NCBI RefSeq assembly: GCF_047718555.1
Contig: NZ_JBDNRK010000011.1
Span: forward strand, 26,209 to 90,208
DNA length: 64,000 nucleotides
Source: Clostridium sp.
Lineage (GTDB): Bacteria > Bacillota > Clostridia > Clostridiales > Clostridiaceae
Direction: 5' to 3'
Part shown: positions 25,937 through 41,678 of the stretch, piece by piece
Numbering within the stretch: position 1 is the stretch's first letter
Layout: the number at the start of each line of letters is the position of its first letter
Notes under the pieces: generated by a model
Database searches by the model: none
What the model saw: only the letters and a program-made list of their open reading frames with translations
Told to the model about the DNA's origin: nothing
Position numbers and translations under genes: made by a program

Positions 25937-26809
25937 TTATCTAACTCGACTTAATATATTTAATATGTCCTGAGGAAATTTGTTTGTCTGTACCATCATC
26001 GCTATGCCTGCATCTACCAATATACCTGATTTAGAGTATTCCATTATTTCAGTAGCTATATCTGCATCACTTATACTGCTGTCTGCATCTTGAATCTTAT
26101 CAGATATTTCATTAGTGTTATTAAAACTATCATTGAATCTATTCTCTATTCCACCATAAACACTTCTAGCATGTACTACATTCTCTATAGCTGAATCCAC
26201 TAAACTAAGATTTGCATCTACAGAATTTTTAGATACATCTACAGTATCTAAAGTATTCCCTGTGGAATCCTGCATACCTGTTGTAACATTAAATCTTGGT
26301 ATAACAACACTATCTCCCGGATTTGCACCTACTGCTGCAGTTATTGTGGAGGCTGGATTTTTATTGTCATAAGGCACTCCACTTGTTGGTGAACTGGCAT
26401 TCAATAGTTTAACACCATTGAATTCAGTATTGTTTGCTGTATTATTAATATCCTGTTTTATCTGATCAATTTCCAGCTGAATATTTTTCTTATCTTCATC
26501 TGTGATCCCCGCTGCCCCAGAAGATACAACAAGTTGCCTCATTCTTTGAAGATCATCACTTATATTGTTCATACCACCTTCTGCTGCCTGCAACATACTT
26601 ATTCCATCCTGTGAATTTTTTGCCCCAGCTTGAAGTCCACGTATTTGCATATTCATTTTTTCACTTTTAGCCATAGCATTGGGGTCATCCTGTGCACTAT
26701 TTATTTTCTTCCCTGAACTTAATCTATTTAAAGCTCCGCTTTGATTATTAAGGTTTTTTGTATATGCATAATATATATTTAATGATGCTAAGTTATGACT
26801 TAATCTCAT
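25937..26809 (-). CDS. Short flagellin (290 aa), second flagellin paralogue
   Basis: LNRLSSGKKINSAQDD, LQRMRQL, TEFNG, ISDADIATEIMEY. Confidence 0.92.
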   Translation of the reverse strand: MRLSHNLASLNIYYAYTKNLNNQSGALNRLSSGKKINSAQDDPNAMAKSEKMNMQIRGLQAGAKNSQDGISMLQAAEGGMNNISDDLQRMRQLVVSSGAAGITDEDKKNIQLEIDQIKQDINNTANNTEFNGVKLLNASSPTSGVPYDNKNPASTITAAVGANPGDSVVIPRFNVTTGMQDSTGNTLDTVDVSKNSVDANLSLVDSAIENVVHARSVYGGIENRFNDSFNNTNEISDKIQDADSSISDADIATEIMEYSKSGILVDAGIAMMVQTNKFPQDILNILSRVR

Positions 26810-26847
26810 TTTATCAACTCCACTTAAAATGTTTTTTACTTTCTATA

Positions 26848-26875
26848 ATTATCGAAGAATTTAAATGAAGCTTTA
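26848..26875 (-). promoter_or_regulatory. Sigma-28 promoter of the short flagellin
   Basis: Minus strand TAAA-N16-TCGATAAT. Confidence 0.75.
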
Positions 26876-26921: not shown

Positions 26922-26945
26922 TTCCAAGTCACAGTTACCCTAGTG
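26922..26945. repeat. Palindromic island site, copy 1 (flanks B.X)
   Basis: TTCCAA-GTCACAGTTAC-CCTAGTG; 21/22 identical to 41078-41099. Confidence 0.8.
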
Positions 26946-28139
26946 CAAGATTTTTGCCAACGGAGTGAGCTTGCTACTCTCTTCACCTTCCATTTCTAAC
27001 TTAAATCCATTTATCTCTACATCTTCACTTAATTCAATTACAAGGCATCTAGTACCATTTTTATTAACAACTTGTTTAACTGAACTTAAATCTCTTGGAT
27101 TAATAATTATACTAGTATCTTCATTTTCAATTTTTATGGATTTACTTTTAAAATCTGGAATTATATTTTTTACCTTAAACTCGTAATCTCCTCCACAGAT
27201 TTCTTCAAAAGAACTTTCTAAAACTTCAGTATTCTCTATTCCACTATCTTCTAAAACCCTCTTAATTTCTTTCATATTCATAGTAGGTTCCTCTTCGTCC
27301 ATACTATCTTCTAATTTTTCATTTATTTTTTCATAAATTTCCTGCATAGCATCAGCTTTTATTTTATCACCAATTACATCATTCAATATAGCATTAAATC
27401 TCTCTTTTTCTTCTACAGCAGTCTGTTTTATACTACAATTTAAAACCTCTTCAACAAATTTCAAATTCAATTGTTTTGATTTTGAAGAATAATATACAAC
27501 TTTATTTACATCCATATTTCCATCACTAAAACTAGGAAACATAAATCCATCTAAAGGTGAATTTAAATTTATTGTAGTATCTAAGGCAGAATTAGGTTTA
27601 AAGGCCCTTTCTTCATAGTCAAATTTCAAAACTCTTTTAGGAATATCTACTTTGTTTATACTACATAAAATGAACTGGATAGCTTGTACAGAATCTTCTA
27701 TTGATTCATCTATTTCTTCTCTTCTTTTCTTGCTTCCTTTGTAGTACTCAGCTTTTACAAAATTTATTACTATATCTGTGTCATATGTATAGTTTTGAGA
27801 TATTTTTTCTACTATTTTATCAGCATATTCTGCTACCCTTTCTTCTGAACTCAATGCCTTATATAATACATTTTGTGTACTTTCTACTAAGTTTTCACTG
27901 TTAAAATCCAATTCAAATATTTTTGTATCTATGGTTCCAGTAAGAATCTTTTTAAAATTATTTAAATAAAGTTCCTTTTTCTCAATTTCTAACATATCAA
28001 AATAACTAAGTTCTTTTTTTATAATTTCATTATTGTCTTTTTTTAAATATATACTATATACTTCTTTTATAGACATCATATAGCTGTTTAATTTAAATTC
28101 TTTTCTTAAGTCAGCCAAATCTTTTTTATTCATAATCAT
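26940..28139 (-). CDS. DUF4317-like protein
   Basis: MNKKDLADLRKEFK.. N-terminus, LDGFMFPSFSD, acidic C-terminus; family recognised from memory. Confidence 0.7.
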   Translation of the reverse strand: MIMNKKDLADLRKEFKLNSYMMSIKEVYSIYLKKDNNEIIKKELSYFDMLEIEKKELYLNNFKKILTGTIDTKIFELDFNSENLVESTQNVLYKALSSEERVAEYADKIVEKISQNYTYDTDIVINFVKAEYYKGSKKRREEIDESIEDSVQAIQFILCSINKVDIPKRVLKFDYEERAFKPNSALDTTINLNSPLDGFMFPSFSDGNMDVNKVVYYSSKSKQLNLKFVEEVLNCSIKQTAVEEKERFNAILNDVIGDKIKADAMQEIYEKINEKLEDSMDEEEPTMNMKEIKRVLEDSGIENTEVLESSFEEICGGDYEFKVKNIIPDFKSKSIKIENEDTSIIINPRDLSSVKQVVNKNGTRCLVIELSEDVEINGFKLEMEGEESSKLTPLAKILH

Positions 28140-28343
28140 TACCTCAGCTTTCTCTTTAGGATAATTACATCCTAATAATATAAATTTAAGACTCCAATTT
28201 ATAATTTTATGCCAATAAATATTATTCTACTCAAAAGCTATAAATCCTCTAAAAATTCTATTTGCCTAATACAATGTCCGAATTATAATGCTAATGACCC
28301 TGAGATGATTGTTAAACTAAATTTTCATCCCAAGGGTCATACT

Positions 28344-29943
28344 TTAAGAGTAAACTTCCACAATTTTCTTTTCCTTTTCATTAATTTTAACCGTTACTTC
28401 TTCTACCTTTCCTGCCACTCCTTTAACTTTTCTAAAATCAAATATTAAAAGATAGCCTTGTTCTAACCCATACTGCTCTAAATATTTGCCTAGTTGTACA
28501 AGTCCTTTTTCATGATACTTATCTCCACGCCATATTTTCAGCTCCAATATATACATCTTTTTATTATAAGTTATAGCTATATCAAACCTTTTCTCTTCTC
28601 CACCTTTTCTCTTCTCCACCTTTTACTTCCTTAAAGGCAAAACCTGTGCCATTTATTATAGGACTTAAAAAAGCAAGAAATAATAATCTTCCATCTTCTT
28701 CTAAAAAGCCTTCTCTTCTCTCTGAATACTCATGTTTCATGAAATACTGAAACTTTAATAATACTTTAGCTATATCCAGGCTTCCATCTTTTTTTATAAA
28801 TTCTGATCTTTCATTGTAAAAACCTAAATTCGTAGAAGTCTCTATTATAGAACTCATATAATCGTATATTTTTTGTTCGTAAATTCTATTATGAAGCTTT
28901 AATTTTCCCTGCTCATCCTTAAATATTCCATATATTACACCCAAGTTTATAGTAGAATTATCTTTATTATAAGTAATTTCACTACCATCTACCGTTATCT
29001 TCTTTATCAATTCTTTTAAAGCAATATTATTTTCTAGATTTTTGATCAAACTATCAAAATTAGTATTGCTATCTTTTAAAAATTCTTTAACAGCTCTGTC
29101 CATATATTCCTTATCCCACTTTAGTTGTTTTATATCCATAATTTTTTCATCTATTATTTTACAAAGCTTACTCACAAGAAAAGGATATCCTGAAGTGTAA
29201 AAATAAAGTCTATCTGAAAAATACTCTTTATCTAATTTTACTCCTTTATTTTTTATGTAATCTTCCAACATAGTACCTATTTCTTCCTTTGAAAAACTCA
29301 TATCCACATCAAAATCTGAAGCTATATTCCAAGGACTGTTGTATTTGTGCTCTTCATCTGATCTTATCTTTAGTTTTAAACTCTTTACATCATGTACACC
29401 TGCTAATATTACACTATGAAAAGTCTTATCTTTCCCCGAATTTCTAAGTAAATATTTGTTTCTCAACATACCTAAAAAGCTCAAAAACATCTGATTGTTA
29501 CTGCTTTTATCTACTTCATCTATCATAATTACTACTTTTTTATTAACTTTTATAATGAACTTTGTTATAGCTCTTGATAAATCATTAAATGTCTGAATTT
29601 TATTCTTTTGTTCTTCCAAAAAGTCAGCCAAATCTTCATAATGTAAAAATAAGCTATCAGCCACTATTTGTAAAAATACTTTTACAAAGCGCTGCTCTTC
29701 TTGAAAAATCAAATCTCCTACACCTTCAAAGCTTATTGATATAGTTAAGTACTCAATATTTTTATCAAGGTTTTTTTCAAGCATATATAAAGTGGTTGTT
29801 TTTCCGTACTGCCTTGGTCTGTTTATTATAAAATACTCTTCATTTTCTATGAACTCCATTATATCATTTAATTTTTCTGATATATCTACCATATAATGCT
29901 TCTCTGGTATACATGTCCCCGTAACATTAAATTTCTTTTCCAT
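28344..29943 (-). pseudogene. AAA-like ATPase fused to a PD-(D/E)XK nuclease-like domain, frameshifted by a 16-bp tandem duplication
   Basis: RPRQYGKTT Walker A, IDEVD Walker B. Removing one ACCTTTTCTCTTCTCC copy restores FKEVKGGEEKRFDIAITY..ILELK..G..QL..YL. Confidence 0.88.
28586..28617. repeat. Perfect 16-bp tandem duplication causing the frameshift
   Basis: ACCTTTTCTCTTCTCC at 28586-28601 and 28602-28617. Confidence 0.95.
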
Positions 29944-30067
29944 TATTCTCTCACCCCACTTCTTGTATATATTTTACCACATTACATAACTCTTTAAACA
30001 CAAAAAAACTGCAAAATATAAAGTCTACAGTTTCCTCATTTTCATCCATTACATCAGCTCATTCACA

Positions 30068-30105
30068 TTTACTATTTTTTTCAAGTAACAGTTATCGTTA
30101 CAAAT
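30068..30105. repeat. Palindromic island site, copy 2 (flanks A.Y)
   Basis: TTTACTATTTTTTTCAA-GTAACAGTTAT-CGTTACAAAT. Confidence 0.7.
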
Positions 30106-30107
30106 AA

Positions 30108-30269
30108 GGCATTGAAAAAGGCAAAGAAGAAACTACCGTGAATCTTTTGAAGCTTGTAATCGATACAGAAATTATAGCTAAAAGCACAGGTTTAAGTTTA
30201 GAAAAAATACTTGAACTTAAGAAAAAATATGAAAACCAGAAGTTTAAGGATAATAAAAATAGAGACTAA
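30108..30269 (+). pseudogene. C-terminal remnant resembling Rpn/PD-(D/E)XK transposase-like protein tails
   Basis: GIEKGKEETTVNLLKLVIDTEIIAKSTGLSLEKILELKKK; no start codon, preceded by TAA, begins about 12 bp after the site core. Confidence 0.65.
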
Positions 30270-30299
30270 CATTGAAATATCAATTCTTTGTTAGTCTCT
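30261..30299. terminator. Hairpin between the convergent Rpn remnant and the Y1 transposase
   Basis: AGAGACTAACA / TGTTAGTCTCT 11-bp stem. Confidence 0.65.
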
Positions 30300-30321
30300 T
30301 TGAATATTAGCCTAATAACAT

Positions 30322-30876
30322 TTAACTAAACTTACTAATTGCAGACTCAACAAATCCCTTATACAATTCTCTATTCTTGTCTTTAAAATATGATAATATT
30401 TTATCACTACAACTTAATTTTTCTTTTTCATTACCAATGTACATAGAATAACTACTCCATTTATAAAATTCTGGTTTTTGGACCATCTTTGCTCTTACAG
30501 GATTTAAATGAATATATCTACTGGCCTCTAATACATAATTATCTTCCTGCATTATTTCTGCATTATACCTATCTTGAAATAAATGTCCTACATAATTATA
30601 TTTGTTATTAAAGTTTCTTGCATAAGACTTATTTATTCGGCTCATTAAATACCATATATGTTTTTCATTTGTTTTTATTTGAAGATGAATATGATTTGTC
30701 ATTAGAGTATACACAATAAGCTCATAACTATTCTCATAATAATCCATAGCTTCTTTCAAGTTTTCCAAATAAACTAAATAATCCTGATCATCTTTAAATA
30801 TATCACTTCTCCTATTCCCCCTACAGGTTACATGATACATTGCGTTAGGATACCATAGTAATTTTTTCTTTGGCAT
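30322..30876 (-). CDS. REP-associated-type HUH (Y1) tyrosine transposase (RAYT-like), apparently intact
   Basis: YHVTCRGNRR, MTNHIHL (HUH), GHLFQDRY, YIHLNPVRA, YKWSSY. RBS GGGGAG precedes MPKKK at 30876 (track start 30894). Confidence 0.88.
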   Translation of the reverse strand: MPKKKLLWYPNAMYHVTCRGNRRSDIFKDDQDYLVYLENLKEAMDYYENSYELIVYTLMTNHIHLQIKTNEKHIWYLMSRINKSYARNFNNKYNYVGHLFQDRYNAEIMQEDNYVLEASRYIHLNPVRAKMVQKPEFYKWSSYSMYIGNEKEKLSCSDKILSYFKDKNRELYKGFVESAISKFS

Positions 30877-32363
30877 TGAATTCTCCCCATTCACTTTATT
30901 CTTATAGGAAGGTACGAAAAGAAGTCGCTAATTATTAGTGTTTCATTGGAAACTGCGTTAGTTACTAGGCGTATCCCCGCTTGAAGCCGCACTCTGAGTA
31001 ATCGGTTTGTAGATTGCATGAGAGTTAAGTACCTAATGGCATTGCTTTACGCAGAAGCAATACTGGGTTAGGGGAAAAATGGAAAGTATAAACGTAGAGT
31101 TGAACCTTTGTAATCTTCGTCAAAGAAGATAAGCGTACTGCGAAGTAACAAGCTTAATATGGATAGAAAAGATTGAATCGTCCTCCAATCGTGCAGTAAC
31201 CCATATATCCATCGGAGTAGAGAAGGATGCTTACCCATTTGAATCTAATATTAGTGGAACTTGGTAAGCCCTTTGTGTTCCTCGAGAGAGGTAGGGTAAT
31301 CGTAAGAAAACTACAATACCAGAGAGCAAAGGAGTGTGGAGAAAGCGAATGCCAGTAGGACGAAAGTCCAGGGGAAAGAATAACCTGCTGGATAGGGTTT
31401 GATAACCCGCTCGAAAGAGGGCAGACTTCCACATGGTCATCAACACGAAAAAAAACGTAAAGAAGAATCTTTTTAAGGAGAAACATGTTTTGAAAACTAT
31501 TAAAAAATTTAATACGTCGGCTGTTTCTCCACATATACAGGACTGGACGCTAATTAACTGGAAGAAAGTATGTCAATATGTGAAGAAACTTCGCCAACGG
31601 ATTTTTCGTGCCGAACAGTTGGGACAGAAAAGAAAAGTAAGAAAGCTTCAAAGACTAATGATTAGAAGTAATGCTAATTTGTTAATGTCAATTAAAAGAG
31701 TTACACAAAATAACAAAGACAAACGAACTGCTGGTGTTGATGCTGAGATTATACTCACTTCAAGTGACAGATTGAGATTATATAACCTTCTCAAGGGGTA
31801 TAATATTAAATATATTATACCTAAGCCAGCAAAAAGATTATACATACCCAAGAAAAATGGTAAAATGCGTCCTTTAGGAATACCGGTCATAAAAGATAGG
31901 ATATTTCAAAATATTGTTAAAAATGCTTTGGAGCCACAATGGGAAGCGAGATTTGGACCTTCTTCATATGGATTCAGACCTAAGCGAAGCGCCCAGGATG
32001 CTATTGTCAACCTATTCACTAAGCTATCATCTAGGAGTACAAGGCAATAGATATTTGAAGGTGACTTCAAGGGATGTTTTGATAATCTCAATCATCAATA
32101 TATTATGGATAGTTTAACGGGATTCCCTGCTAAAGAAACTATATATAAATGGTTAAAAGCAGGATATGTTGATAATAACTCATTTAATAATACAGATTCT
32201 GGCACTCCTCAAGGTGGTTTATGCAAAGCTTCGCATAATCCGCCTTATGCAAAGAAAGTAATTATGCAAAGTAAACTTTGAAATATCGCATACTTACTGA
32301 CTCTCTTTTTGGTTTACTTTGCATAATCTTCGTCAATGATAATAGAGTGAAAACTCAAAATTA

Positions 32364-33618
32364 TTGAAGGAGGTATTTCTTTTGAAAAAGAAACCACTTA
32401 ATGAATTATTACAGGACTTAGAGCAGGAACTGCTACGATTAGGCTACACAGAGGGTTCTATGAAATTTTATCATAACCGCTGGGAAAAAATCATAAAATT
32501 CGCAGAAGAGCGTAATGAGACTTATTACTCAGAACAACTGGGGATAGACTTTGTTGAGAAACATTTTCAGATTTTTAAAAAGGATTTCGATAAAACCTTG
32601 TGCCAGAAAGATACTCAAGAACTTCGCATCATCAGAATGATTGGAGATTTCCAACTCCATAATACCGTTTTAAGGCGATACTATAAACACAAACAACTTT
32701 TGATTGACCCTTACTATATGAAGTATAAGTAGTAATTTCAAAAATCACTGCAAATCCAAAGATTACTCAAAGGTGACTGTTGATCACTACGTAAATCAAG
32801 CAGAGCGATTTATGGATTACTTGCTTTCGCAAGGCATATATGATTGTCGTAATATGAGTCTCTCAATTATTCATGGCTATATCAAAACATTAGCTGGATA
32901 TACTTACAAAACTGTGGAACAGAATATCTGCTCTATCCGTGCATTTTTAAGATATCTTCTGGAACAGGACATTTTAAAAACTGATTTAGCTGCAAAAACA
33001 CCAATGGTTCAAGCCCGTAAACAGACAAGAATTCCCTCTGTGTGGACAAAGGAAGAACTAAGCGCACTTATAGGTGCTATTGACCGTGGTAGTCCAAAAG
33101 GGAAAAGGGATTATGCCATTATCCTTCTAGCTTGTATGTTGGGACTTAGGGTTACTGATATCAAGAACCTGACTTTTGACTGCTTTCACTGAGAAGAAAA
33201 AAGGCTGATATTTACCCAGTCCAAGACAAGAGAAACAGTTATACTCCCAATTCGATCCGAATTGGGATGGGCTGTCATTGATTATCTGAAATATGGTAGA
33301 CCGAAGGTTGATTCATCCATCATATTTGTAAGGCATATGGCGCCATTCCTACCTTTTTCAGAAGGAGACCACTTAGCTCAACTAATACAAAATTATATGA
33401 GAACAGCGCATCTGCCTACGTTGAAAAAGCGTCGTGGTATGCACTCTCTCCGCCATACGGCTACATCGAAAATGCTTGAGCAGGGCACATCTCTAGTAGT
33501 CATTTCAGATATCCTTGGTTATACAGATACTGACTCAACATCAGTTTATTTGAAAGTGGATGTAGCTAAACTGAAGGAATGTTGCCTGGATACTGCGGAG
33601 GTAAGTGCCCATGAGTAA
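32364..33618 (+). pseudogene. RIT recombinase A (frameshift near 32720; TGA at 33190-33192)
   Basis: Three ORF pieces join into one integrase: RDYAIILLA..LGLRV.DI, HSLRHT, ISDILGY. Confidence 0.88.
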
Positions 33619-34597
33619 TTATATTTTCAAAGGACCATTTGCAGAGAATATAGAAAACCACGTAAAATTAAAACAGGCTATCGGTTATAAGTACAATACT
33701 GAAGCAGATCATCTATTACGGTTCTCTACATTTACTGCTAAAAAGTATCCTGAAGCAAAAGAGCTTACAAAGGAAATTGTTATGGACTGGTGCTCGAAAA
33801 AGAGTTATGAGGCACAGGCCAATCAGTGTTCAAGAGCTTCTATACTACGGCAGTTTGCTATATATATGGATAGCATAGATATGAATCCATACATAATTCC
33901 AAAAGGCTATTTTCAAGTTGAAGAACACTATATTCCATATATTTATACTGTAGATGAATTACAGCGTTTTTTCAATGAGACAGACAAGTGTCATTATGTC
34001 AACGAATGCCCATATCGACATTTAATTATGCCTGTATTCTTCCGAATGGTTTACTCATGCGGTCTTCGTTCTTCGGAAGCAAGACTCCTTAAAGTAGAAG
34101 ATGTAAATCTTGACACAGGGGTACTAACCATTCAGCATTCCAAGAAGGATAACTGTCGTTTTGTTCCAATGTCTGATGAATTAACAAGATGCTGCCGCGA
34201 TTACTCCAATAATGTACATATGACGTCAAAGCGAAGCGATTTCTTTTTTCCGGGATTGAATAATAAGCCTATGACTATAGTTAATGTATATCATAACTTT
34301 CGACGATTCTTATGGAAGGCTGGTATTTCCCATGGAGGTCGCGGCAAAGGACCTCGTGTTCACGACTTCCGCCATACTTTTGCATGCCACTGTCTTAAAC
34401 AATGGGTTCTCCAAGGAAAGGATCTTTCGGTTTACCTTCCAGTGTTAAAGACATATATGGGACATGATTCCTTTGAGGAAACTGCATATTATCTTAGAAT
34501 GACTGCTGATGTATTCCCGGATATATCAATTAAGTTGGAAGGAAGCTTTCCTGGTATTATTCCTAAGTTAGAAGGTGCTGACCATGAGACCAACTGA
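33611..34597 (+). CDS. RIT recombinase B (tyrosine recombinase), intact
   Basis: YSCGLRSSEA, HDFRHTFA, YMGHDSFEETAYY. Confidence 0.9.
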   Translation: MSNYIFKGPFAENIENHVKLKQAIGYKYNTEADHLLRFSTFTAKKYPEAKELTKEIVMDWCSKKSYEAQANQCSRASILRQFAIYMDSIDMNPYIIPKGYFQVEEHYIPYIYTVDELQRFFNETDKCHYVNECPYRHLIMPVFFRMVYSCGLRSSEARLLKVEDVNLDTGVLTIQHSKKDNCRFVPMSDELTRCCRDYSNNVHMTSKRSDFFFPGLNNKPMTIVNVYHNFRRFLWKAGISHGGRGKGPRVHDFRHTFACHCLKQWVLQGKDLSVYLPVLKTYMGHDSFEETAYYLRMTADVFPDISIKLEGSFPGIIPKLEGADHETN

Positions 34598-35597
34598 TTT
34601 TGCAATCCACCTTACAGGATTTCTGTCCGAATATCTTCCAAAACAAAAGAATGCAAGTAAGAATACGATAGTATCATACCGAGATACTTTCAAGCTATTG
34701 ATTAGATACTGTAATGAGCAGAGAAATATACATGTTGAAAAGCTAAATCTAAGCATGCTAACGCATGAATTGATTATAGGGTTCCTTGAATGGCTAGAAA
34801 CAGATAAAAAATGTAGAATTTCTACTAGAAATCAACGCCTTGCGGCTATACATTCCTTTTTTCGCTATGCACAGTACGAGGAACCAGAAGGAATTCTTCA
34901 TTTCCAAAAGGTAATTTCTCTGCCGATTAAAAAGGCACAAAAGTCATCGATACCCCATCTAACACCTGAAGCTATGCAAGTCTTATTATCTCAGCCAGAT
35001 AAAACTACTGCAAAAGGACGTAGAGATTTAACGCTTTTAGATATCCTTTATGATTCCGGATGTAGGGTACAGGAACTTGCTGATCTTAGGGTACGTGATG
35101 TTGTATTGAGCAATCCGGCAGCTCTTATTCTTACTGGAAAAGGAAATAAAATTCGCAGAGTTCCTCTTATGAAAAATACACTTACTTTATTGGAACACTA
35201 CATTCAGGAGAATTCCCTTAATAAACTTTGGAAAAGCGATTATCCTTTGTTTACAAACAAACAACATAACAAGCTTTCTAAAGAGGGAATTGCATATATT
35301 ATTTCTCAGCATGTACATTCAGCAAGAAGGATCTCAACGATAGTGCCCGAAAAAGTAACACCTCATATGTTTCGGCATAGCAAGGCAATGCACCTTCTTC
35401 AAGCTGGTGTCAATCTAATATATATACGATATTTCTTAGGTCATGAGGACATCAAAACCACAGAAATCTATGCCAAGTGTGATACCGAATTAAAACGTCA
35501 GGCCATTGAGAACGCATATCCTGATTTAGTTGACAGCAACTTACCTGATTGGAGTGAAGATTCAGCGTTGCTTGATTGGCTTTCCAAGTTAAAGTAG
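34584..35597 (+). CDS. RIT recombinase C (tyrosine recombinase), intact
   Basis: YDSGCRVQEL, GKGNKIRRVP, PHMFRHSKAMHLL, FLGHEDIKTTEIYA. Confidence 0.92.
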   Translation: MRPTDFAIHLTGFLSEYLPKQKNASKNTIVSYRDTFKLLIRYCNEQRNIHVEKLNLSMLTHELIIGFLEWLETDKKCRISTRNQRLAAIHSFFRYAQYEEPEGILHFQKVISLPIKKAQKSSIPHLTPEAMQVLLSQPDKTTAKGRRDLTLLDILYDSGCRVQELADLRVRDVVLSNPAALILTGKGNKIRRVPLMKNTLTLLEHYIQENSLNKLWKSDYPLFTNKQHNKLSKEGIAYIISQHVHSARRISTIVPEKVTPHMFRHSKAMHLLQAGVNLIYIRYFLGHEDIKTTEIYAKCDTELKRQAIENAYPDLVDSNLPDWSEDSALLDWLSKLK

Positions 35598-37089
35598 TCA
35601 GATATTATGCAAAGTAAATCCTACAACAATCCATCTAAATCAGTGCTTAGCTAGGTTTACTTTGCATAATCATCAACTTTGCATAAGGATAGCTTGTCTC
35701 ACCTCCGCTAGCCAATATAGCACTACATGGTATGGAAGAAGAACTGGGCATTAGATACTATCTCAATAGAGGAAGACGTTATTTAGCTAGGAATTCGGTT
35801 GGAGTAACAATCTATGCTGATGATTTTGTAGTTGTATGCAAAACAAAAGAAGAAGCCACAAATATGTATGAAAAGCTTAAACCATATCTTGATAAAAGAG
35901 GATTAAAGCTTGCAGATGATAAAACAAAAGTTACACATATTAGTGAAGGATTTGATTTTCTTGGATTTAATCTGAGACAGTGTAAAACTAATAGTAAGAT
36001 GCAACTACTAATAAAACCATCAAAGGCAAGTGTAAAAAAAGCCAGGGAAACGATATAAGAATGTTTTTACACAAATGCTAGGGAAATCAGTTGGAGACCT
36101 AATTGCAAAGCTGAACCCTATAATTAGGGGCATAGGAAACTACTGGTCAAGTCAAGTTGCAAAGAAGATATTCGAAAATCTGGATATGTATATATGGATT
36201 AATACAAGAAAGCATTTGAAACATTTACACCACAACAAGCCATTTAAATGGATTTACAGAAAGTACTTCAAAGCTGATCATACGGGCATCAGCAGAGCTA
36301 AATGGATATTGACAGACCCTCATGATAACAAAACTCAGTTATTTAAGATGAGCTGGATACCGATAGTAAGACATGCTGTAGTTAAGTATAAGAATAGTCC
36401 TGATGATGCCAATTTAAAAGAGTATTTTGAGAAAAGAGACAAAAAGGAGTTCATAAGGGATAATGTTTTGAGTAGAAGGAAAATGGCAAAACGCAGCAAT
36501 TATAAGTGTAGAGTATGTAAACAATCATTAGTTGGAGCAGAGCCTTTAAAGATTAATCAAATTGTACCTCGCATATTAGGCGGTGATGAACTTTATGATA
36601 ACTTAGAATTGTTACATCAAAGTTGTCAGAAACAACATCAATCACTACTTGTAAAATACGGTGGAGGAAGACATTTAACAGCAATAATAAAATACTCCCA
36701 TAATAATCAAGTAGAACTCAACAGCCAAGAAGGATACAGATTAATGAAAGAGACATTTAAGAAATTTAAATACCAACTTGTTTGAGATAAAAGATGGCTT
36801 GAGCCGTATGTTTTGTAAGGAACAAGTACGGTTCTTAGGCGAGAAAGAAGTAGTAATCCTTCCAACTTAGCGGGAACGTACATAGATTTATGTAAATCAA
36901 ATCTATGTACGTTCTTTTTATGTATATATAGCTGGTAATAATGGAAATAATATCATTAAAATATTGTGAGAGGAGTAGAAATATATGAAGATTTTAGTTT
37001 TACCATAGTGTTAGTATAAAAGTGTAGACACAAAGGAATAGATTTACAGAAGTGATAAAATAAAAATAAGGGAAGGAAAGTGTCTACAG

Positions 37090-37359
37090 ATGGGAAGAAC
37101 AGTTAAAAGCTATACAGAAGAATATAAGAACACAATAGTTGAATTATTTAACAATGGGAAAACGTATAAAGAACTTAACAGCGAATATGGAGTACCAAAA
37201 AGTACTATAAGACAGTGGGTAAATAAAGTAGAGAAAAGAAATGATGGAACTGAAGAAAAAGAGAATAATATAAAAGAAATACTTAAAAGAGATGCTCTTC
37301 TTCAAGAGGAGAATGAAATATTAAAAAAAGCATTGTCCATATTCGCAAAGGCAAAATAG
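37090..37359 (+). CDS. IS3 OrfA (HTH)
   Basis: YTEEYK..IVEL..GK....L..EYGV..STIRQW; A7G slippery run at 37323-37330. Confidence 0.9.
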   Translation: MGRTVKSYTEEYKNTIVELFNNGKTYKELNSEYGVPKSTIRQWVNKVEKRNDGTEEKENNIKEILKRDALLQEENEILKKALSIFAKAK

Positions 37360-38258
37360 AAGAAATATATAAGTTCATTGATATCTACAAGCAATATTAC
37401 TGCAGAAAAATAAAAAAGTACTTCAGCATAAAGATAATGTGTAAAACTCTTGGAATAAGCAGAGCTGCATACTATAAGCATATGCATAGAAAGCCATCTA
37501 AATGGGAGAAAGAAGATAAAATACTGGACAAAAGAATATATCAAGAATATAAGGATTCTAAAGGAATATACGGAGCACCAAAAATTTGCGAAAAATTGAT
37601 GAAAAAAGGTTTTAATCCAAGTCTTAAAAGAGTTCAAAGAAGAATGAAGAAGATGAATATAAAATCCATTATAATAAAGAAATGGAAAGCATACAATACC
37701 AGCAAAAAAAGAGTAGAGCAAAAAGAAAATCTAATAAAAGAAAACTTTACAGCCAGTACAATAAACGAGAAGTGGCTTACAGATATAACTTACATTTATA
37801 CACTGGAAGATGGATGGTGTTACCTAGCATCTGTATTTGACTGCTATAGTGCTAAGATAATAGGATGGTGCTTTTCAAAAAATATTGATGCTAGTATGGC
37901 TTTACAAGCTATTAAGAATGCCGTAAATAGTCAAAACCCTAATTACGAAACTCTTATAATTCATAGTGATTTAGGTTCACAATATACAAGCAGTGAGGTT
38001 GAAGGATACTTTAATGAATTAGGCATACGTCATTCTTACAGTAAAAAAGGCTATCCATATGATAATTCACCTCAAGAATCATTTCATGCTTCACTTAAGA
38101 AAGAAGAAAAATTGATGAATAAATATAAGAATTTTTATAAAGCTAAAATATGCATTTTTCAATATATTGAAGCATGGTACAACAGAAAAAGAATACATAG
38201 TAGATCAGGATTTATTACTCCACAACAATATGAAGATATTGCTAGAAAATCTGCTTAA
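37356..38258 (+). CDS. IS3 OrfB DDE transposase (in the -1 frame relative to OrfA)
   Basis: WLTDITY, HSDLGSQY, DNSPQESFHASLKKE, WYNRKRIHS. Confidence 0.92.
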   Translation: MEEIYKFIDIYKQYYCRKIKKYFSIKIMCKTLGISRAAYYKHMHRKPSKWEKEDKILDKRIYQEYKDSKGIYGAPKICEKLMKKGFNPSLKRVQRRMKKMNIKSIIIKKWKAYNTSKKRVEQKENLIKENFTASTINEKWLTDITYIYTLEDGWCYLASVFDCYSAKIIGWCFSKNIDASMALQAIKNAVNSQNPNYETLIIHSDLGSQYTSSEVEGYFNELGIRHSYSKKGYPYDNSPQESFHASLKKEEKLMNKYKNFYKAKICIFQYIEAWYNRKRIHSRSGFITPQQYEDIARKSA

Positions 38259-39753
38259 ATGTTTATAAAAAAAGTGTCTACACTATTGACATAAATCCAC
38301 CAGATATAGATTTAAATAAAGAAGTTAATAAGTGCAAAAGCATGGAAGATTTAGTTGGAAAAAACAGATTAATGCAGCGATTGTTTGGGAATATTATTCA
38401 GCAATTTTTAGAAGCTGAAATGGAAGATCAAAGTATGATAGAGATTTAAATGATGATAAAAATTATAGAAATGGTTATACACCTAAAAACGTTAAGACTA
38501 GTTTTGGTGATGTCAAAGTTGATGTACCTAGAGATCGTAGATCTGAGTTTGAACCTAAAATTGTTAAAAAATATGAGACTGTATGCAATGAACTTGATAA
38601 AAAAGTAATTGGACTCTATGCAAGAGGTATGCCTGTAGATGACATAAAGTCTGAAATTGATGAGCTTTACGGGGTAGATATTTCTCCTGCAATGATCTCT
38701 AAGATAACTGATAAAGTCATGAATACAGCTATTGCTTGGAAAAATAGGGCGTTAGAGCCCGTTTATCCTATTGTATATATGGATGCTATACATTTTAAAG
38801 TTAAAGAAGATCATCAGATTATAAATAAAGCTGCTTATATATGTATGGCTTTGGGCCTGAAAGGTTATAAAGACATCTTAGGCATATGGATTGGTGAACA
38901 AGAAAGTGCTAAGTTTTGGCTGTCAGTATGTAATGACCTCAGAAATAGAGGCGTTAAAGATATAATTATAGGATGTATGGATGGTCTTAAAGGACTACCT
39001 GATGCCATTAAGACTGTTTTCATGATATAAATATACAAAGCTGTATAATTCATCAGATAAGAAACTCTATAAAATATATTGCATCTAAAGATAGTAAAGA
39101 GTTTATGAAAGATCTTAAAAATGTTTATAAGGCTGTTAATGAAAATATAGCGGCTAACGCCCTGTAAACTCTCGAAGAGACGTGGGGAGATAAATATTCT
39201 ATAGTAATAGATTCATGGAATAATAATTGGGAAAATCTATCTACTTATTTCAATTTTCCTCCGGAAATAAGAAAAATAATATACACTACTAATGCTATTG
39301 AGGGATTCAATAGACAATTAAGAAAATTTACTAAGATAAGAACTACATTTCCTACGGATAATTCTTTGAGAAAAGCTCTTTACCTTGCTACAGAACAAAT
39401 TATGACTAAGTGGACTTCTCCATCACCTAATTGGGCTTATACTTTAGCTCAGCTAACTTTGATGTTTAAAGATAGGCTTGAGCAATATATATAAACAATA
39501 CAAATAAAAGCTTGTACTATTTTATTTATGAATAAAAATGCTATTTTTACAAATAATAATAAGAAATAAAAGCTATATAAACTCATTCTTTAGTATTATC
39601 ATATAATTTAAAAATTACTACAGGAATAATTTCCCATAGTAATTTCCAATTTAAAAGTAGCTAGTCTATTTTATTTTACACAAACTTATGAACGTTCTCA
39701 ACTTAGCCGACAATTATTGACATAGTATTTATTTTTAAACCGGTCATTTTATT

Positions 39754-39780
39754 TTCCAAGTCACTGTTACCCTTGCAAAT
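39754..39780. repeat. Palindromic island site, copy 3 (flanks B.Y)
   Basis: TTCCAA-GTCACTGTTAC-CCTTGCAAAT. Confidence 0.75.
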
Positions 39781-39823
39781 TCTGTTTTTACTATCCAATG
39801 CTATAACTTGCACTGTTAATTCC

Positions 39824-39859
39824 TTTACTATTTTTTCCCAAGTTACAGCTACCCTAGTG
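39824..39859. repeat. Palindromic island site, copy 4 (flanks A.X)
   Basis: TTTACTATTTTTTCCCAA-GTTACAGCTAC-CCTAGTG. Confidence 0.75.
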
Positions 39860-39957
39860 TTCTCAGTCTTTGAAGATTTACCATCCGCAACTAATGATTC
39901 TTCAAATTCTATTACGATTTTTTCAGCAGCTACTTCAATAGTAGTATTAGCATCCAT
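39860..39957 (-). pseudogene. N-terminal stub resembling a tyrosine-recombinase SAM-like domain, truncated at site copy 4
   Basis: IEFEESLVADGKSSKTE resembles integrase starts (F..YL..DGKS.KTI.SY); the frame then runs into the site sequence. Confidence 0.55.
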
Positions 39958-39962
39958 TGCTA

Positions 39963-40308
39963 TTACTCCAAATACTTTAGCAATTCTTTGGGTGTTAGTT
40001 CCAGTGATATCAGTAGGCTTATGCTGTAGTCACTGCTAAGAAGCATTAGGGAGTTAGTATATTTGTCACCATTGGAGCAGGTTATTACATCTACATACTC
40101 TGGTAGGTTACTTTCCATGCTTTCTAATAGCTTTCAAATCCTCACCTGTTTCTGCTATTAGAATGTATCCACCTAAATCATGTTCTGCATCTCTTTGATT
40201 TCCGTAGTTTTCATCAAGAATTGCTGCAATCTCCAATGCTTTTGCTACTACCTCCGCTGGTAGATTTTTTAGAAGCCCTTCTTCTCTTTTATTAGCTATC
40301 ATTATCAT
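39963..40308 (-). pseudogene. Hypothetical protein, frameshifted near 40110
   Basis: ..LDENYGNQRDAEHDLGGYILIAE.. continues in another frame as NLPEYVDVITCSNGDKYTNSLMLLSSDYSISLLISLELTPKELLKYLE*, ending 5 nt before the stub ATG. Confidence 0.7.
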
Positions 40309-40796
40309 GGTTATCTCCTCCTTGAATTCTATTTCTATTATTCAAGGTAATAATATATATTTGATTATTCCATGATTACAGGTACAAAAAAATAGCCTAA
40401 GATAGATTTTACTCCATCTTAGGCTTTTACCAGTTCACTGCATTATTTAGATTATGCAGTGAAGATTTTATTACTGATTTTCCGTTAGTCATTGTACTGC
40501 AATAGTTGTTACTACTGCAACCACTACAGAATAGTTTTGCAGTGAACCCAATTTTTCTACTCTAAAAATCGGCACTATCAGCACTATTGTAATCCTATTT
40601 TTTACAGTGTCAACAATGTCGGTATTTTAGGCTTAGAGAGGTGTTCCCACAACATCTTCAATTCACTTCCACTGACTACCTCTATTTTAGAGGACAGTAG
40701 GGCTAATAAGGCTGTGCCCTGATTGCCCTACAAAATACAAGTAGCCTTCATAGCAAAAATGAGCGTCAATAGCCTTTTTTCTATAGTCACTGATGC

Positions 40797-41051
40797 TCAT
40801 TCAAGTATTTTTCCATCTTCTATTTTTCTGATTTCTCCATCTATTGCTTTAACCTGTGCTGCTAAGTCGTTTAGCCTAGCATTTAGTTCTTCCAATTCAC
40901 CTACAGTAAGATTATCATGCTTAGACTTCTCTGCTAACTCTCTCATTTGCAGCAGCTTATCTTCAATAATGTCCAACATCTTCTGCCTGTACTGAACCCA
41001 CTGCAATTCCTTTTCTAATTGTTGCTTTAGTCCTTCTTTTTCATTCATCAC
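40797..41051 (-). CDS. Small coiled-coil protein resembling the flagellin N-terminal D1 helices
   Basis: MLDIIEDKLLQMRELAEKSKHDNLT..LEELNARLNDLAAQVKAI aligns by eye to FliC ALNETTSILQRMRELSVQASNDTLN..RGQIQKEVNQLTSEIDRI. Confidence 0.7.
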   Translation of the reverse strand: MMNEKEGLKQQLEKELQWVQYRQKMLDIIEDKLLQMRELAEKSKHDNLTVGELEELNARLNDLAAQVKAIDGEIRKIEDGKILE

Positions 41052-41064
41052 ATCAACTCATTCA

Positions 41065-41099
41065 TTTACCATTTTTCCCAAGTAACAGTTACCCTAGTG
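41065..41099. repeat. Palindromic island site, copy 5 (flanks A.X; perfect core)
   Basis: TTTACCATTTTTCCCAA-GTAACAGTTAC-CCTAGTG. Confidence 0.8.
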
Positions 41100-41120
41100 G
41101 GGTGCGAAGCAGCCTACTTA

Positions 41121-41678
41121 CTACTTCAATCTTTTTAACTTTTTCTCAATTTTCTCAATTTCATTTTTCATTTCTTTAATTTGTTCATTAATGTAAATAT
41201 TTTCGGTTGCACTCCACCATTTCAATAATTCATCTTTATTATCCTCAACTTTATCTTTATATGATTTAATAGGGTAAATAGAATCCAAATTAGTATAAAT
41301 CTTATGAAAACTTATTAATTTGTCATATTCTGTAGCACTAAGTTTAGCTTTTAAAATATTAATGTAAGCTATCCATTCTTTATCTGAATATATTGTATAC
41401 ATCCCAGTTAATACTATACTAACAACACCATCAATGCAATTTTCCTTTAAATAATTAATATTTTGAGCAGCTTGTGTGTGAAAATCTTCTGATACTTTAT
41501 TTATTCTATTTATTTCATGAAAAATTATATTTTTAGATTGTATGCTATTTCTTCTATTATTCATGATGTTTGTTATTTTAAAAGTAATAAATGAAATAAT
41601 AATTGGAAGGAAAAATCCTGAAATAAATAGTTTATAAAAATCATTGCTTAGTATTACAACTAATACATTTTTCAACAT
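41121..41678 (-). CDS. AT-rich hypothetical membrane-anchored protein
   Basis: 185 aa, N-terminal hydrophobic segment, good RBS (GGAGG); family not recognised. Confidence 0.65.
   Translation of the reverse strand: MLKNVLVVILSNDFYKLFISGFFLPIIISFITFKITNIMNNRRNSIQSKNIIFHEINRINKVSEDFHTQAAQNINYLKENCIDGVVSIVLTGMYTIYSDKEWIAYINILKAKLSATEYDKLISFHKIYTNLDSIYPIKSYKDKVEDNKDELLKWWSATENIYINEQIKEMKNEIEKIEKKLKRLK

What the first reader, a model, noticed from the sequence alone, without database searches (positions are those of the whole stretch)
26922..41099. Candidate cassette-exchange system: five co-oriented palindromic sites whose flanks occur in all four combinations
Seen: an 11-bp core related to GTAAC-N-GTTAC starts at 26928 (GTCACAGTTAC), 30085 (GTAACAGTTAT), 39760 (GTCACTGTTAC), 39842 (GTTACAGCTAC) and 41082 (GTAACAGTTAC). 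Left flanks are A (TTTACYATTTTT..CAA) or B (TTCCAAGTCAC). Right flanks are X (CCTAGTG) or Y (CSTTRCAAAT). The combinations are B.X, A.Y, B.Y, A.X, A.X. Sites sit at gene-block edges: they abut the DUF4317 stop, cut the integrase stub, precede the Rpn remnant and precede the mini-flagellin RBS. Established: reciprocal half-site swaps (A.X x B.Y giving A.Y + B.X) mark site-specific crossover in a core. Inference: the 3.1-kb ATPase-nuclease plus DUF4317 block between A.Y and B.X entered as an A.X circle into a B.Y site, so this may be an integron-like or REP-like cassette array at the flagellin locus. I do not recognise it as a described system.
Basis: partly seen in the sequence, partly recalled or inferred. 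Interest (0 to 1): 0.85.

Follow-up and report, generated by a model that had tools for sequence, protein, structure and literature searches.

The report
Repeat sites of a clostridial Y1-transposase
The five sites are real copies of a 36-base repeat that, across Clostridium species, brackets a REP-type (RAYT-like) tyrosine transposase gene in the flagellin region and sits where related strains differ, so it is more likely that enzyme's DNA target than an integron-like crossover site.

Summary
All five sites exist, are co-oriented and exceed chance. A profile built only from relatives' copies finds exactly these five in 64 kb. They belong to a repeat family found in at least 12 Clostridium species or MAGs. 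Its gene-sense (window minus strand) consensus is cccACT-AGGGTAACTGTGACTTGG-gAAAAAyAGTAAA.

X is the foot of an optional upstream hairpin. A is the conserved 3' part of the repeat. Y is the T-tract of a terminator hairpin. B is not a class.

Direct copies bracket a RAYT-like Y1 (HUH) transposase gene in four other genomes. They also do so in the window once an 8.8-kb IS/intron insertion is removed. This gene lies in the flagellin hypervariable region in five species.

Structural differences between close strains end at the 5' edge of a core: three of three indels in C. pasteurianum and one island boundary in C. butyricum.

Best reading, partly inferred: a REPtron-like system in which Y1 cuts single-stranded DNA at the core edge and rejoins it to other ends. 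Reciprocal core crossover and the "circle insertion" of the ATPase block are not supported. I rate it a new variant of a known kind, of moderate to high interest.

The parts
41060..41122 (-). Site 5: the most complete copy. It has upstream hairpin-1 (41096-41119, AAGTAGG..CCCCACT) plus the 36-nt core and its A-rich tail, 25 nt upstream of the cc83 start codon.
   Evidence: (E = 6.5e-13)
40797..41048 (-). cc83: an 83-aa coiled-coil gene restricted to Clostridium. It is the cargo of the site-cc83-terminator module and lies in flagellin loci next to YjfB in other species.
   Evidence: The link to flagellin is weak (E = 4).
40755..40800 (-). Hairpin-2: the intrinsic terminator of cc83 (stem plus TTTTT) and the right end of the repeated module. 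Its T-tract forms the 'Y' flank when another core follows.
39819..39861 (-). Site 4: core plus A-rich tail. It truncates a tyrosine-recombinase N-terminal stub (39860-39957) at ...AACACT|AGGG. The region from site 4 to site 3 is orthologous to C. pasteurianum L036 2381-2454.
   Evidence: (E = 2.9e-6)
39738..39778 (-). Site 3: a Y-type core (central A, preceded by ..TTTGCA). It is the site originally just upstream of the Y1 leader.
   Evidence: (E = 2.7e-5)
39712..39755 (-). The 5' half of the Y1 leader (ATGACCGGTTTAAAAATAAATACTATGTCAATAATT). It is contiguous with the 3' half in C. pasteurianum.
   Evidence: L036 5895-5963 is contiguous with 5964-6539
30938..39711 (.). An 8.8-kb secondary insertion that splits the Y1 leader. 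It carries an IS256-like fragment, an IS3, and a group II intron RT ORF interrupted by three tyrosine-recombinase genes. It is flanked by an AATAATT direct repeat, and GC skew reverses inside it.
30322..30911 (-). RAYT-like Y1 (HUH) transposase gene (ORF 30322-30894; probable ATG at 30876) with the 3' half of its leader. The HUH residues (H68, H70) and the Y127-x3-NP motif are intact.
30106..30241 (+). Rpn/Transposase_31 gene fragment inserted between the Y1 3' end and site 2, replacing the site that overlaps the Y1 stop codon in relatives.
   Evidence: 87.5% identity to L036 102-237
30031..30105 (-). Site 2: a degenerate core (ACGATAACTGTTACTTGA) with a T-rich upstream flank, followed by the 5' remnant of a cc83 paralogue (ATGGATGAAAATGAGG...).
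   Evidence: (E = 6.7e-4)
28344..29943 (-). AAA-ATPase_like plus PD-(D/E)XK gene, split here into 453 and 91 aa but intact (527 aa) in C. pasteurianum. It is a conserved neighbour of Y1.
26940..28139 (-). DUF4317 gene. Its stop codon is the TAG of CACTAGG in site 1. The gene is absent from the syntenic loci examined.
26922..26945 (-). Site 1: CACT plus a perfect 18-nt core. The right side is truncated after TTGGA. It lies about 60 nt upstream of the sigma-D-like promoter of flagellin 25937-26809.
   Evidence: E = 4.6e-8

Best explanation
The five sites are copies of the 36-nt 5'-terminal sequence of a family of small repeated modules. An optional 24-nt hairpin may precede it. The family is found in a clade of Clostridium. 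It comprises three forms: a hairpin-1/core/cc83-gene/terminator-hairpin module, about 130-nt miniature derivatives that have lost the ORF, and a core/leader/Y1/core unit that encodes a RAYT-like (REP-type, class 2) HUH tyrosine transposase.

The unit resides in the flagellin hypervariable region. I propose that it works like a REPtron. Y1 recognises the core, with or without the hairpin, on the strand that is single-stranded at the replication fork. It cuts at or within a few nucleotides of the core's 5' edge and stays covalently attached to the 5' phosphate of the core side. It then reseals that end to a heterologous 3'-OH. The results would be one-ended deletions, insertions, duplications and module spread. 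This would explain why unrelated genes abut the cores and why the locus is a patchwork.

Shown: the family, its module structure, the bracketing of Y1, the conserved flagellar location, and the breakpoints at core edges. Inferred: that Y1 is the enzyme, which strand is active, and the polarity and chemistry of the reaction.
For: - Family: a scan of 185,579 species genomes gave 32 loci, about 24 of them Clostridium, several with arrays. I counted 67-68 distinct copies with an invariant or near-invariant 18-mer.
- Y1 bracketing: direct copies flank Y1 in L017, L020, L036 and L039. Truncated versions occur in L026 and L028. The Y1 ORF ends in a stop codon that lies inside the downstream site in three genomes.
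- Window reconstruction: L036 5895-5963 and 5964-6539 are contiguous in C. pasteurianum. They match window 39779->39712 and 30911->30338, which are separated here.
- Enzyme: Y1 is intact and class-2-like, with HUH and Y-x3-NP invariant (signature from PMC6006769). Its best PDB match is E. coli TnpA_REP, 4ER8. Some sources name homologues RayT.
- Location: Y1 lies in flagellin loci in C. pasteurianum, C. autoethanogenum, C. butyricum, Clostridium sp. JN-1 and the window.
- Breakpoints in C. pasteurianum: L036 and L037 differ by 11 mismatches in 7,003 nt and have three internal indels. Each indel has its right boundary 7 nt upstream to 1 nt inside the first core base, and an arbitrary left boundary. 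By my arithmetic, about 12 sites x 9 nt / 7,003 nt gives 0.015 per event, or about 4e-6 for all three.
- Breakpoint in C. butyricum: L040 and L041 become 98.5% identical exactly at the left edge of that species' diverged version of the site, about 120 nt upstream of a Y1 gene.
- Breakpoints versus the window: homology blocks between the window and L036 start within 6 nt of core starts.
- Mini-modules align to the two ends of the window's site5-cc83-terminator module.
- Orientation: 56 of 68 copies are co-oriented with local genes. The window's gene strand is the G-rich, leading-strand sequence and hence the lagging-strand template. This is the strand IS200/IS605-type enzymes act on (PMC3333891, introduction).
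- Precedent: E. coli TnpA_REP cleaves at loosely specified positions near REPs and rejoins strands, which was proposed to generate BIME diversity (PMC3333891).
Against: - There is no direct evidence that Y1 acts on these sites.
- The core is not a hairpin. Hairpin-1 is present in only about half of the copies and shows little covariation: 2 double changes, and 84.5% pairing that largely reflects sequence conservation.
- Copies are mostly direct, not the inverted doublets of REPINs/BIMEs.
- The three indel junctions are not at one phosphodiester bond, and they do not fit the C|T rule of E. coli TnpA_REP.
- Y1 scores below NCBIfam's REP_Tyr_transpos cut-off (62 vs 80 bits).
- The core sits at a fixed short distance upstream of the cc83 and YjfB start codons in several species. 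That would also fit an RNA or expression role.
- In the window all five copies lie within 14 kb, so genome-wide dispersal is unproven for this organism.
- Copies in one locus are not independent observations.
Confidence: 0.55

Rival explanations
1. One reading: an integron-like cassette array. A site-specific recombinase (an integrase or Y1) crosses over reciprocally inside the palindromic core, so cassettes excise as circles and reinsert, shuffling half-sites.
For: Sites are co-oriented, lie between gene blocks and form arrays in relatives: at least 12 in 12.5 kb in L036, and many on one MAG contig. The genes between them are accessory, including toxin-antitoxin pairs, McrBC-like genes, HipA and nucleotidyltransferases. 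Upstream and downstream flank types combine freely.
Against: The flank classes have other explanations. None of three real indel junctions is core-to-core. One junction keeps a partial site directly followed by a complete one. The palindrome is not the conserved feature. The only integrase-like sequence touching a site is a stub of about 33 codons, and the three intact recombinase genes lie in a nested insertion on the other strand. The ATPase block is a long-standing neighbour of Y1 in four other genomes. No attC-like R''/L''-L'/R' architecture is present.
Confidence: 0.1
2. The core is mainly an expression or RNA element of a small flagellar gene module. Possible roles are a 5'-UTR or intercistronic processing site, a regulator binding site, or a three-frame translational stop, with hairpin-1 stabilising the upstream 3' end. 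Copies would arise by ordinary duplication and decay of cc83, YjfB and Y1 genes, and Y1 would be just a neighbour.
For: The core lies a fixed 15-25 nt upstream of cc83 or YjfB start codons in the window, C. magnum, C. pasteurianum, C. autoethanogenum, Clostridium sp. JN-1 and metagenome contigs. No promoter separates it from the start codon, so it would be transcribed. The sense strand carries stop codons in all three frames. The 18-mer is better conserved than the neighbouring coding sequence.
Against: Many copies have no downstream ORF (mini-modules and type-a copies) or lie in non-flagellar islands. The indels between near-identical strains cluster at core edges. No Rfam family matches. No sigma-70-like promoter lies in the sites. 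This model does not explain why both ends of Y1 carry a copy.
Confidence: 0.2
3. The copies are passive repeats: relics of tandem or segmental duplication of a Y1-cc83 unit. They act only as short homologies or as fork-stalling structures for host recombination, with no dedicated enzyme.
For: The C. pasteurianum and window loci contain many decayed partial copies of leader, Y1 N-terminus and cc83. One indel shows 3-nt microhomology.
Against: Homology-driven events should give core-to-core hybrids, which are not seen. The 18-mer is identical across species whose Y1 proteins are only 60-85% identical, while the flanks decay. That argues for selection on a recognition sequence. The diverged C. 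butyricum Y1 comes with a diverged site.
Confidence: 0.12

Closest known systems
REP/BIME sequences with their RAYT (TnpA_REP), i.e. the REPtron of E. coli, Pseudomonas and others
   Same: Both have an HUH Y1 protein with the class-2 Y-x3-NP signature, usually at low copy number. The gene is bracketed by copies of a short repeat that also occurs elsewhere in the genome. An imperfect hairpin with a conserved internal mismatch lies next to a conserved tetranucleotide (CTAG here, GTAG there). Both show loosely positioned breakpoints and local diversification. The gene location appears to be inherited vertically.
   Different: Here the conserved unit is a 36-nt non-hairpin sequence, and the hairpin is optional. 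Copies are almost all direct and co-oriented with genes, not inverted doublets. Copy number appears low (units to tens). The unit is tied to one genomic region, the flagellin hypervariable region. Copies often overlap stop codons or truncate genes rather than being strictly extragenic. The protein is below the curated RAYT cut-off.
IS200/IS605 insertion sequences and their miniature derivatives (PATEs)
   Same: Both use Y1 HUH chemistry. Both ends lie on the same strand, with different subterminal hairpins (hairpin-1 at the left, hairpin-2 at the right of the cc83 module). There are no inverted terminal repeats and no target duplication at cores. Miniature derivatives arise by internal deletion. 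Orientation is biased relative to replication. A short sequence, (C)ACT, recurs just 5' of the left end, as a target tetranucleotide would.
   Different: The transposase is class-2 (REP-type), not TnpA_IS200. The gene does not appear to move as a unit with its ends. No precise empty site or excision was seen. The right end is not sharply defined.
Integron cassette arrays (attC sites, IntI)
   Same: Both are co-oriented arrays of short conserved sites separating diverse accessory genes, including toxin-antitoxin pairs. Recombination substrates are probably single-stranded.
   Different: There is no IntI-type integrase, no attI and no attC symmetry. The junctions are one-ended rather than core-to-core.
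One-ended rolling-circle elements (IS91/ISCR, HUH Y2)
   Same: One boundary is fixed at a specific end sequence and the other is variable, so adjacent DNA of variable length is captured or deleted.
   Different: The enzyme class differs (two tyrosines, much larger protein). No ori/ter ends were identified here. The resemblance is by behaviour only.

Membership tests
REP/RAYT (REPtron) | HUH-Y1 protein of class 2, with an HuH motif and the Y-x3-NP signature (PMC6006769) | tested here: met
   H68 and H70 are invariant, and so is Y127-I-H-L-N131-P132, in 14 homologues including the window protein. The best solved-structure match is TnpA_REP 4ER8, with a weak E-value of 0.032.
REP/RAYT (REPtron) | Protein passes the curated RAYT model (NCBIfam NF047646) | tested here: not met
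   62.4 bits against a cut-off of 80. Pfam Y1_Tnp passes, 43.5 against 23.
REP/RAYT (REPtron) | Gene flanked on both sides by copies of a repeat that also occurs elsewhere in the genome | tested here: met
   Seen in L017, L020, L036 and L039, and in the window after removing the 8.8-kb insertion. Copies occur on other contigs of the same MAGs.
REP/RAYT (REPtron) | The repeat is an imperfect palindrome (hairpin) with a 5' GT[AG]G | tested here: inconclusive
   The core is not a hairpin. The adjacent hairpin-1 (AGTGGG..CCCACT, with a conserved mismatch) is present in about half of the copies and is preceded on the other strand by CTAG, not GTAG.
REP/RAYT (REPtron) | Repeats occur as inverted doublets (REPIN/BIME) | tested here: not met
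   Only 3 of 17 multi-copy loci have mixed orientation (L005, L020, L021). The rest are direct.
REP/RAYT (REPtron) | Tens to hundreds of extragenic copies dispersed genome-wide | not testable with these tools
   Only 8-16 kb loci could be fetched. One MAG contig has at least 14 copies, and the window has 5 within 14 kb.
REP/RAYT (REPtron) | The enzyme binds and cleaves the repeat as single-stranded DNA | not testable with these tools
   This needs biochemistry.
IS200/IS605 and derived MITEs | TnpA of class 1 (IS200 type) carried between the two ends | tested here: not met
   The class-2 signature and the 4ER8 best hit argue against it. No IS608- or ISDra2-type structure was matched.
IS200/IS605 and derived MITEs | Insertion 3' of a fixed tetra- or pentanucleotide, without target duplication, and precise excision | tested here: inconclusive
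   (C)ACT precedes AGGG in most copies, including those with unrelated upstream genes. No filled/empty pair with precise ends was found, and the indel ends vary from -7 to +1.
Integron | IntI-type tyrosine recombinase with attI next to the array | tested here: not met
   Only a truncated recombinase stub abuts site 4. The intact recombinase genes lie in a nested insertion on the opposite strand. None was seen next to the arrays in L036-L044.
Integron | Cassette gain or loss by recombination between two sites, leaving one hybrid site | tested here: not met
   None of the three indels between L036 and L037 is core-to-core.
Transcription-factor operator or regulon motif | Motif at a fixed position upstream of functionally related genes across the genome | tested here: inconclusive
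   The distance to the cc83 and YjfB start codons is fixed. However, many copies have no downstream gene or lie in unrelated islands.

The most novel reading that the evidence does not exclude
A RAYT-type Y1 enzyme and its 36-nt site form a gene-capture and shuffling system that is integron-like in function but mechanistically different. One-ended single-strand cleavage and joining at the core edge would build and remodel co-oriented arrays of accessory genes. This system would be the resident engine of the flagellin/flagellar-glycosylation hypervariable region across Clostridium, and of defence-type islands in some species.
Probability: 0.25. Interest if true: 0.85.

Novelty: new variant of a known kind. 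Interest (0 to 1): 0.6.

Why it matters
The region between flgB and fliD is described as a hypervariable hotspot for foreign DNA throughout Clostridium. The paper I read on this notes "transposase sequences" there but names no site or enzyme (PMC13317340).

This analysis gives a concrete, testable candidate: a conserved Y1 gene resident in that region and a sharply conserved 36-nt sequence at which strain differences begin.

RAYT proteins have been noted in Clostridia only in passing. The survey that reports them there found that the RAYT group concerned has only weakly abundant flanking repeats (PMC5581495). A direct-repeat, non-palindromic, gene-abutting variant would broaden what a REP system can look like. 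It would also link such a system to surface-antigen (flagellin glycosylation) diversity.

Tried and rejected
- Coding-remnant idea. The cores read T-R-V-T-V-T-W-E on the sense strand, and some of the variation falls at third codon positions. I dropped this because the conserved 36-mer has stop codons in all three frames, sits in many unrelated contexts, and the variable bases are simply the N positions of GTNAC-N-GTNAC.
- Known RNA families. There were no Rfam hits at gathering score in the window or in 16 loci, and only noise at E <= 1.
- Promoter. No sigma-70-like match lies inside any site. I saw no sigma-D or sigma-54 consensus by eye.
- Phage origin. There were 0 exact matches to the 18-mer in 2.9 million viral contigs.
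- E. coli C|T cleavage rule. It does not fit the three indel junctions.
- Hairpin-1 covariation. Only 2 double changes were found, so this is not decisive.
- "Mini-flagellin". BLASTP of cc83 against the 454-aa flagellin is not significant (E = 4). A few source annotations call homologues "flagellin-like FlgL".
- Exact-protein look-ups for the 84-aa ORF and for DUF4317 found nothing.
- A single-sequence PDB search with Y1 found nothing. The profile search was needed.
- The metagenome scan added only 7 loci.

Full report
**1. Observation**

The five cores are at the stated coordinates with the stated flanks. A degenerate pattern search gives five hits, all on the + strand, against 1.07 expected. 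None of 100 shuffles reaches five. The local genes run on the minus strand:
- flagellin 25937-26809
- DUF4317 26940-28139
- a split AAA-ATPase_like/PD-(D/E)XK gene 28344-29943
- a Y1_Tnp gene 30322-30894
- an 83-aa coiled-coil gene, here called cc83, 40797-41048
- a 185-aa gene, and flagellin 41756-43120

I therefore read the sites on the minus ("sense") strand, for example site 5 as CACT-AGGGTAACTGTTACTTGG-GAAAAATGGTAAA.

**2. The sites belong to a genus-level repeat family**

One scan of species-representative genomes with the degenerate 21-mer returned 32 loci. About 24 are Clostridium: C. grantii, C. bowmanii, C. lacusfryxellense, C. magnum and several MAGs, some with many co-oriented copies. 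The rest look like chance hits.

The consensus is cccACT-AGGGTAACTGTGACTTGG-gAAAAAyAGTAAA, and its 18-mer is invariant or nearly so. A profile built only from the relatives' copies finds exactly the five window sites (E = 6.5e-13 to 6.7e-4) and nothing else in 64 kb. The 18-mer is absent from 2.9 million viral contigs and rare in metagenome contigs. No Rfam family matches.

**3.

- X (CCTAGTG on the + strand) is CACT plus the foot of a 24-nt hairpin, AAGTGGG-N8-12-CCCACT. About half of the copies have it, and it never occurs without the core. Its stem is 84.5% paired, against 32-48% for slid controls. Covariation is weak, and there is a conserved internal mismatch.
- A is the conserved 3' third of the repeat (gAAAAAyAGTAAA).
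- Y is the T-tract plus (G/T)CA that follows a second hairpin, hairpin-2.
- B is not a class. It is TT plus a variable core base. Site 3's right side is A-like with a deletion, and site 1 is truncated on the right.

The four "combinations" therefore do not indicate reciprocal exchange.

**4. Module structure**

Hairpin-2 is the intrinsic terminator of cc83. Many relatives' copies carry a roughly 130-nt "type-b" form. It aligns to window 41125->41053 (hairpin-1, core, 5'-UTR) and then jumps to 40804->40757 (the last cc83 codons plus the terminator). These are miniature derivatives of a hairpin-1/core/cc83/hairpin-2 module that have lost the ORF. The full module, with a core 15-25 nt upstream of the cc83 or YjfB start codon, recurs in C. 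pasteurianum, C. autoethanogenum, C. magnum, Clostridium sp. JN-1 and metagenome contigs.

**5. Link to the Y1 gene**

Direct copies bracket homologues of the window's Y1 gene in L017, L020, L036 (C. pasteurianum) and L039 (C. autoethanogenum). L026 and L028 carry truncated versions. In three genomes the Y1 stop codon lies inside the downstream copy.

In the window the upstream copy is site 3. In C. pasteurianum the stretch core-leader-Y1 is contiguous (L036 5895-5963 followed directly by 5964-6539). In the window it is split into 39779->39712 and 30911->30338. The split is caused by an 8.8-kb block (30938-39711) that holds an IS256-like fragment, an IS3, and a group II intron RT ORF interrupted by three recombinase genes. 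The block is flanked by an AATAATT repeat, and the sign of the GC skew reverses inside it. Downstream of Y1, an Rpn gene fragment (30106-30241) has replaced the copy that should overlap the stop codon, and it abuts site 2.

The window's Y1 keeps every invariant residue, including HUH and Y-x3-NP. The latter is the class-2 (TnpA_REP) signature given in PMC6006769. Its best structural relative by sequence profile is E. coli TnpA_REP, 4ER8, at a weak E = 0.032. It falls below NCBIfam's RAYT cut-off.

**6. Conserved genomic home**

The Y1 gene lies inside the flagellin/flagellar-glycosylation region in C. pasteurianum (84% identical), C. autoethanogenum, C. butyricum (two paralogues) and Clostridium sp. 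JN-1. Its neighbours there are YjfB, cc83, flagellins and the same AAA-ATPase_like gene. That region is described as a genus-wide hypervariable hotspot containing "transposase sequences", with no site defined (PMC13317340).

**7. Breakpoints**

(a) Two C. pasteurianum-type sequences share an identical Y1 protein and differ by 11 mismatches in 7,003 nt. They have three internal indels of 55, 281 and 20 nt. Every one has its right boundary at the 5' edge of a core:
- |CACTAGGG
- the same boundary, or up to 3 nt further upstream
- CTA|TGGTAAC

The left boundaries fall in a terminator, inside another site, and in the 3' end of the ATPase gene. By my arithmetic the chance expectation is about 4e-6. 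None of the three is core-to-core.

(b) Two C. butyricum strains are unrelated upstream and 98.5% identical downstream of a point that is the left edge of that species' diverged site (tcgca|ATGCTACCTGCTATCTAGTG versus ttct|ATGCAACCTGC...). The point lies about 120 nt before Y1. The site has diverged along with a 64%-identical Y1.

(c) Homology blocks between the window and C. pasteurianum start within 6 nt of the core starts of sites 5, 4, 3 and 2.

(d) Unrelated genes run into cores. Nine copies supply the stop codon of an upstream ORF of at least 60 codons. Site 4 cuts a recombinase stub.

**8. Mechanism (inference)**

The breakpoints have one fixed end at the core's 5' edge and one arbitrary partner. 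This is the behaviour expected if an HUH enzyme nicks there, remains on the 5' phosphate of the core side, and is resolved by a foreign 3'-OH. HUH Y1 enzymes form 5'-phosphotyrosine intermediates. E. coli TnpA_REP cleaves at loosely specified positions around REPs and transfers strands (PMC3333891).

Of 68 copies, 56 are co-oriented with local genes. In the window the sense strand is the G-rich strand and hence the lagging-strand template. This is consistent with action on single-stranded DNA, but it does not discriminate between models.

**9. Weaknesses**

- There is no enzymology.
- The cut position is not fixed and does not follow the C|T rule.
- The core is not a hairpin.
- The fixed spacing to the cc83 and YjfB start codons leaves room for an RNA or expression role.
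- Whole-genome dispersal could not be measured.

**10. Verdict**

The best description is a REPtron-like Y1/repeat system of unusual form: direct, non-palindromic, gene-abutting and module-forming. It is resident in the clostridial flagellin hypervariable region and sits at strain-level breakpoints.

Noticed in passing
window 30938-39711: An 8.8-kb composite insertion lies in the Y1 leader. It holds an IS256-like fragment (about 38629-39700), an IS3 (37090-38258), and a group II intron RT ORF split into 31433-32050 and 35732-36785 by three consecutive tyrosine-recombinase genes (32364-35597). It is flanked by an AATAATT direct repeat, and the GC skew changes sign inside it.
   Followed up: partly
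window 40394-40613 (minus strand): There is a near-consensus promoter (TTGACA-16-TACAAT, 40613-40586) and a strong intrinsic terminator (13-bp stem plus a T run, 40425-40394) upstream of the 66-aa ORF 40108-40308. This could be a leader/attenuator or a small RNA. There is no Rfam match. The 401-nt stretch 40400-40800, which also includes the cc83 terminator, folds with z = -5.2.
   Followed up: partly
window 40714-40735 (minus strand): A possible sixth, degenerate core (TTTTGTAGGGCAATCAGGGCAC) lies right after the T-tract of the cc83 terminator, where Y-type cores sit in relatives. It is below the nhmmer threshold.
   Followed up: no
window 28344-29943; L028, L036, L039, L044: An AAA-ATPase_like plus PD-(D/E)XK gene neighbours the Y1 gene in five genomes. 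It is intact (527 aa) in C. pasteurianum but split into 453 and 91 aa in the window. It may be a functional partner of Y1.
   Followed up: partly
window about 26845-26870 (minus strand): A sigma-D/sigma-28-like promoter (TAAAG-N15-TCGATA) lies between site 1 and the 290-aa flagellin gene. I read it by eye only.
   Followed up: no
L004, L006, L008, L011, L013, L027 (Clostridium MAGs): At least seven paralogous copies of a core plus a roughly 150-nt leader are followed by McrB/McrC-like genes (often truncated), next to HipA-like and other defence-type genes. The core family is therefore also spread through non-flagellar islands.
   Followed up: partly
L040 3545-3609, 7351-7415, 8819-8883 (C. butyricum): A diverged site variant (CGCAATGYWACCTGCTATYTRGTG) occurs three times: upstream of a Y1 gene, a TPR-glycosyltransferase gene and a flagellin gene. 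The first two copies are followed by a shared promoter-like and RBS segment of about 80 nt.
   Followed up: partly
L005 4938-4988; L020 6235-6352: These are rare inverted arrangements. In L005 two cores flank one hairpin and form a roughly 50-nt perfect palindrome. In L020 an inverted pair is about 100 nt apart, downstream of Y1. Both resemble REPIN doublets.
   Followed up: no
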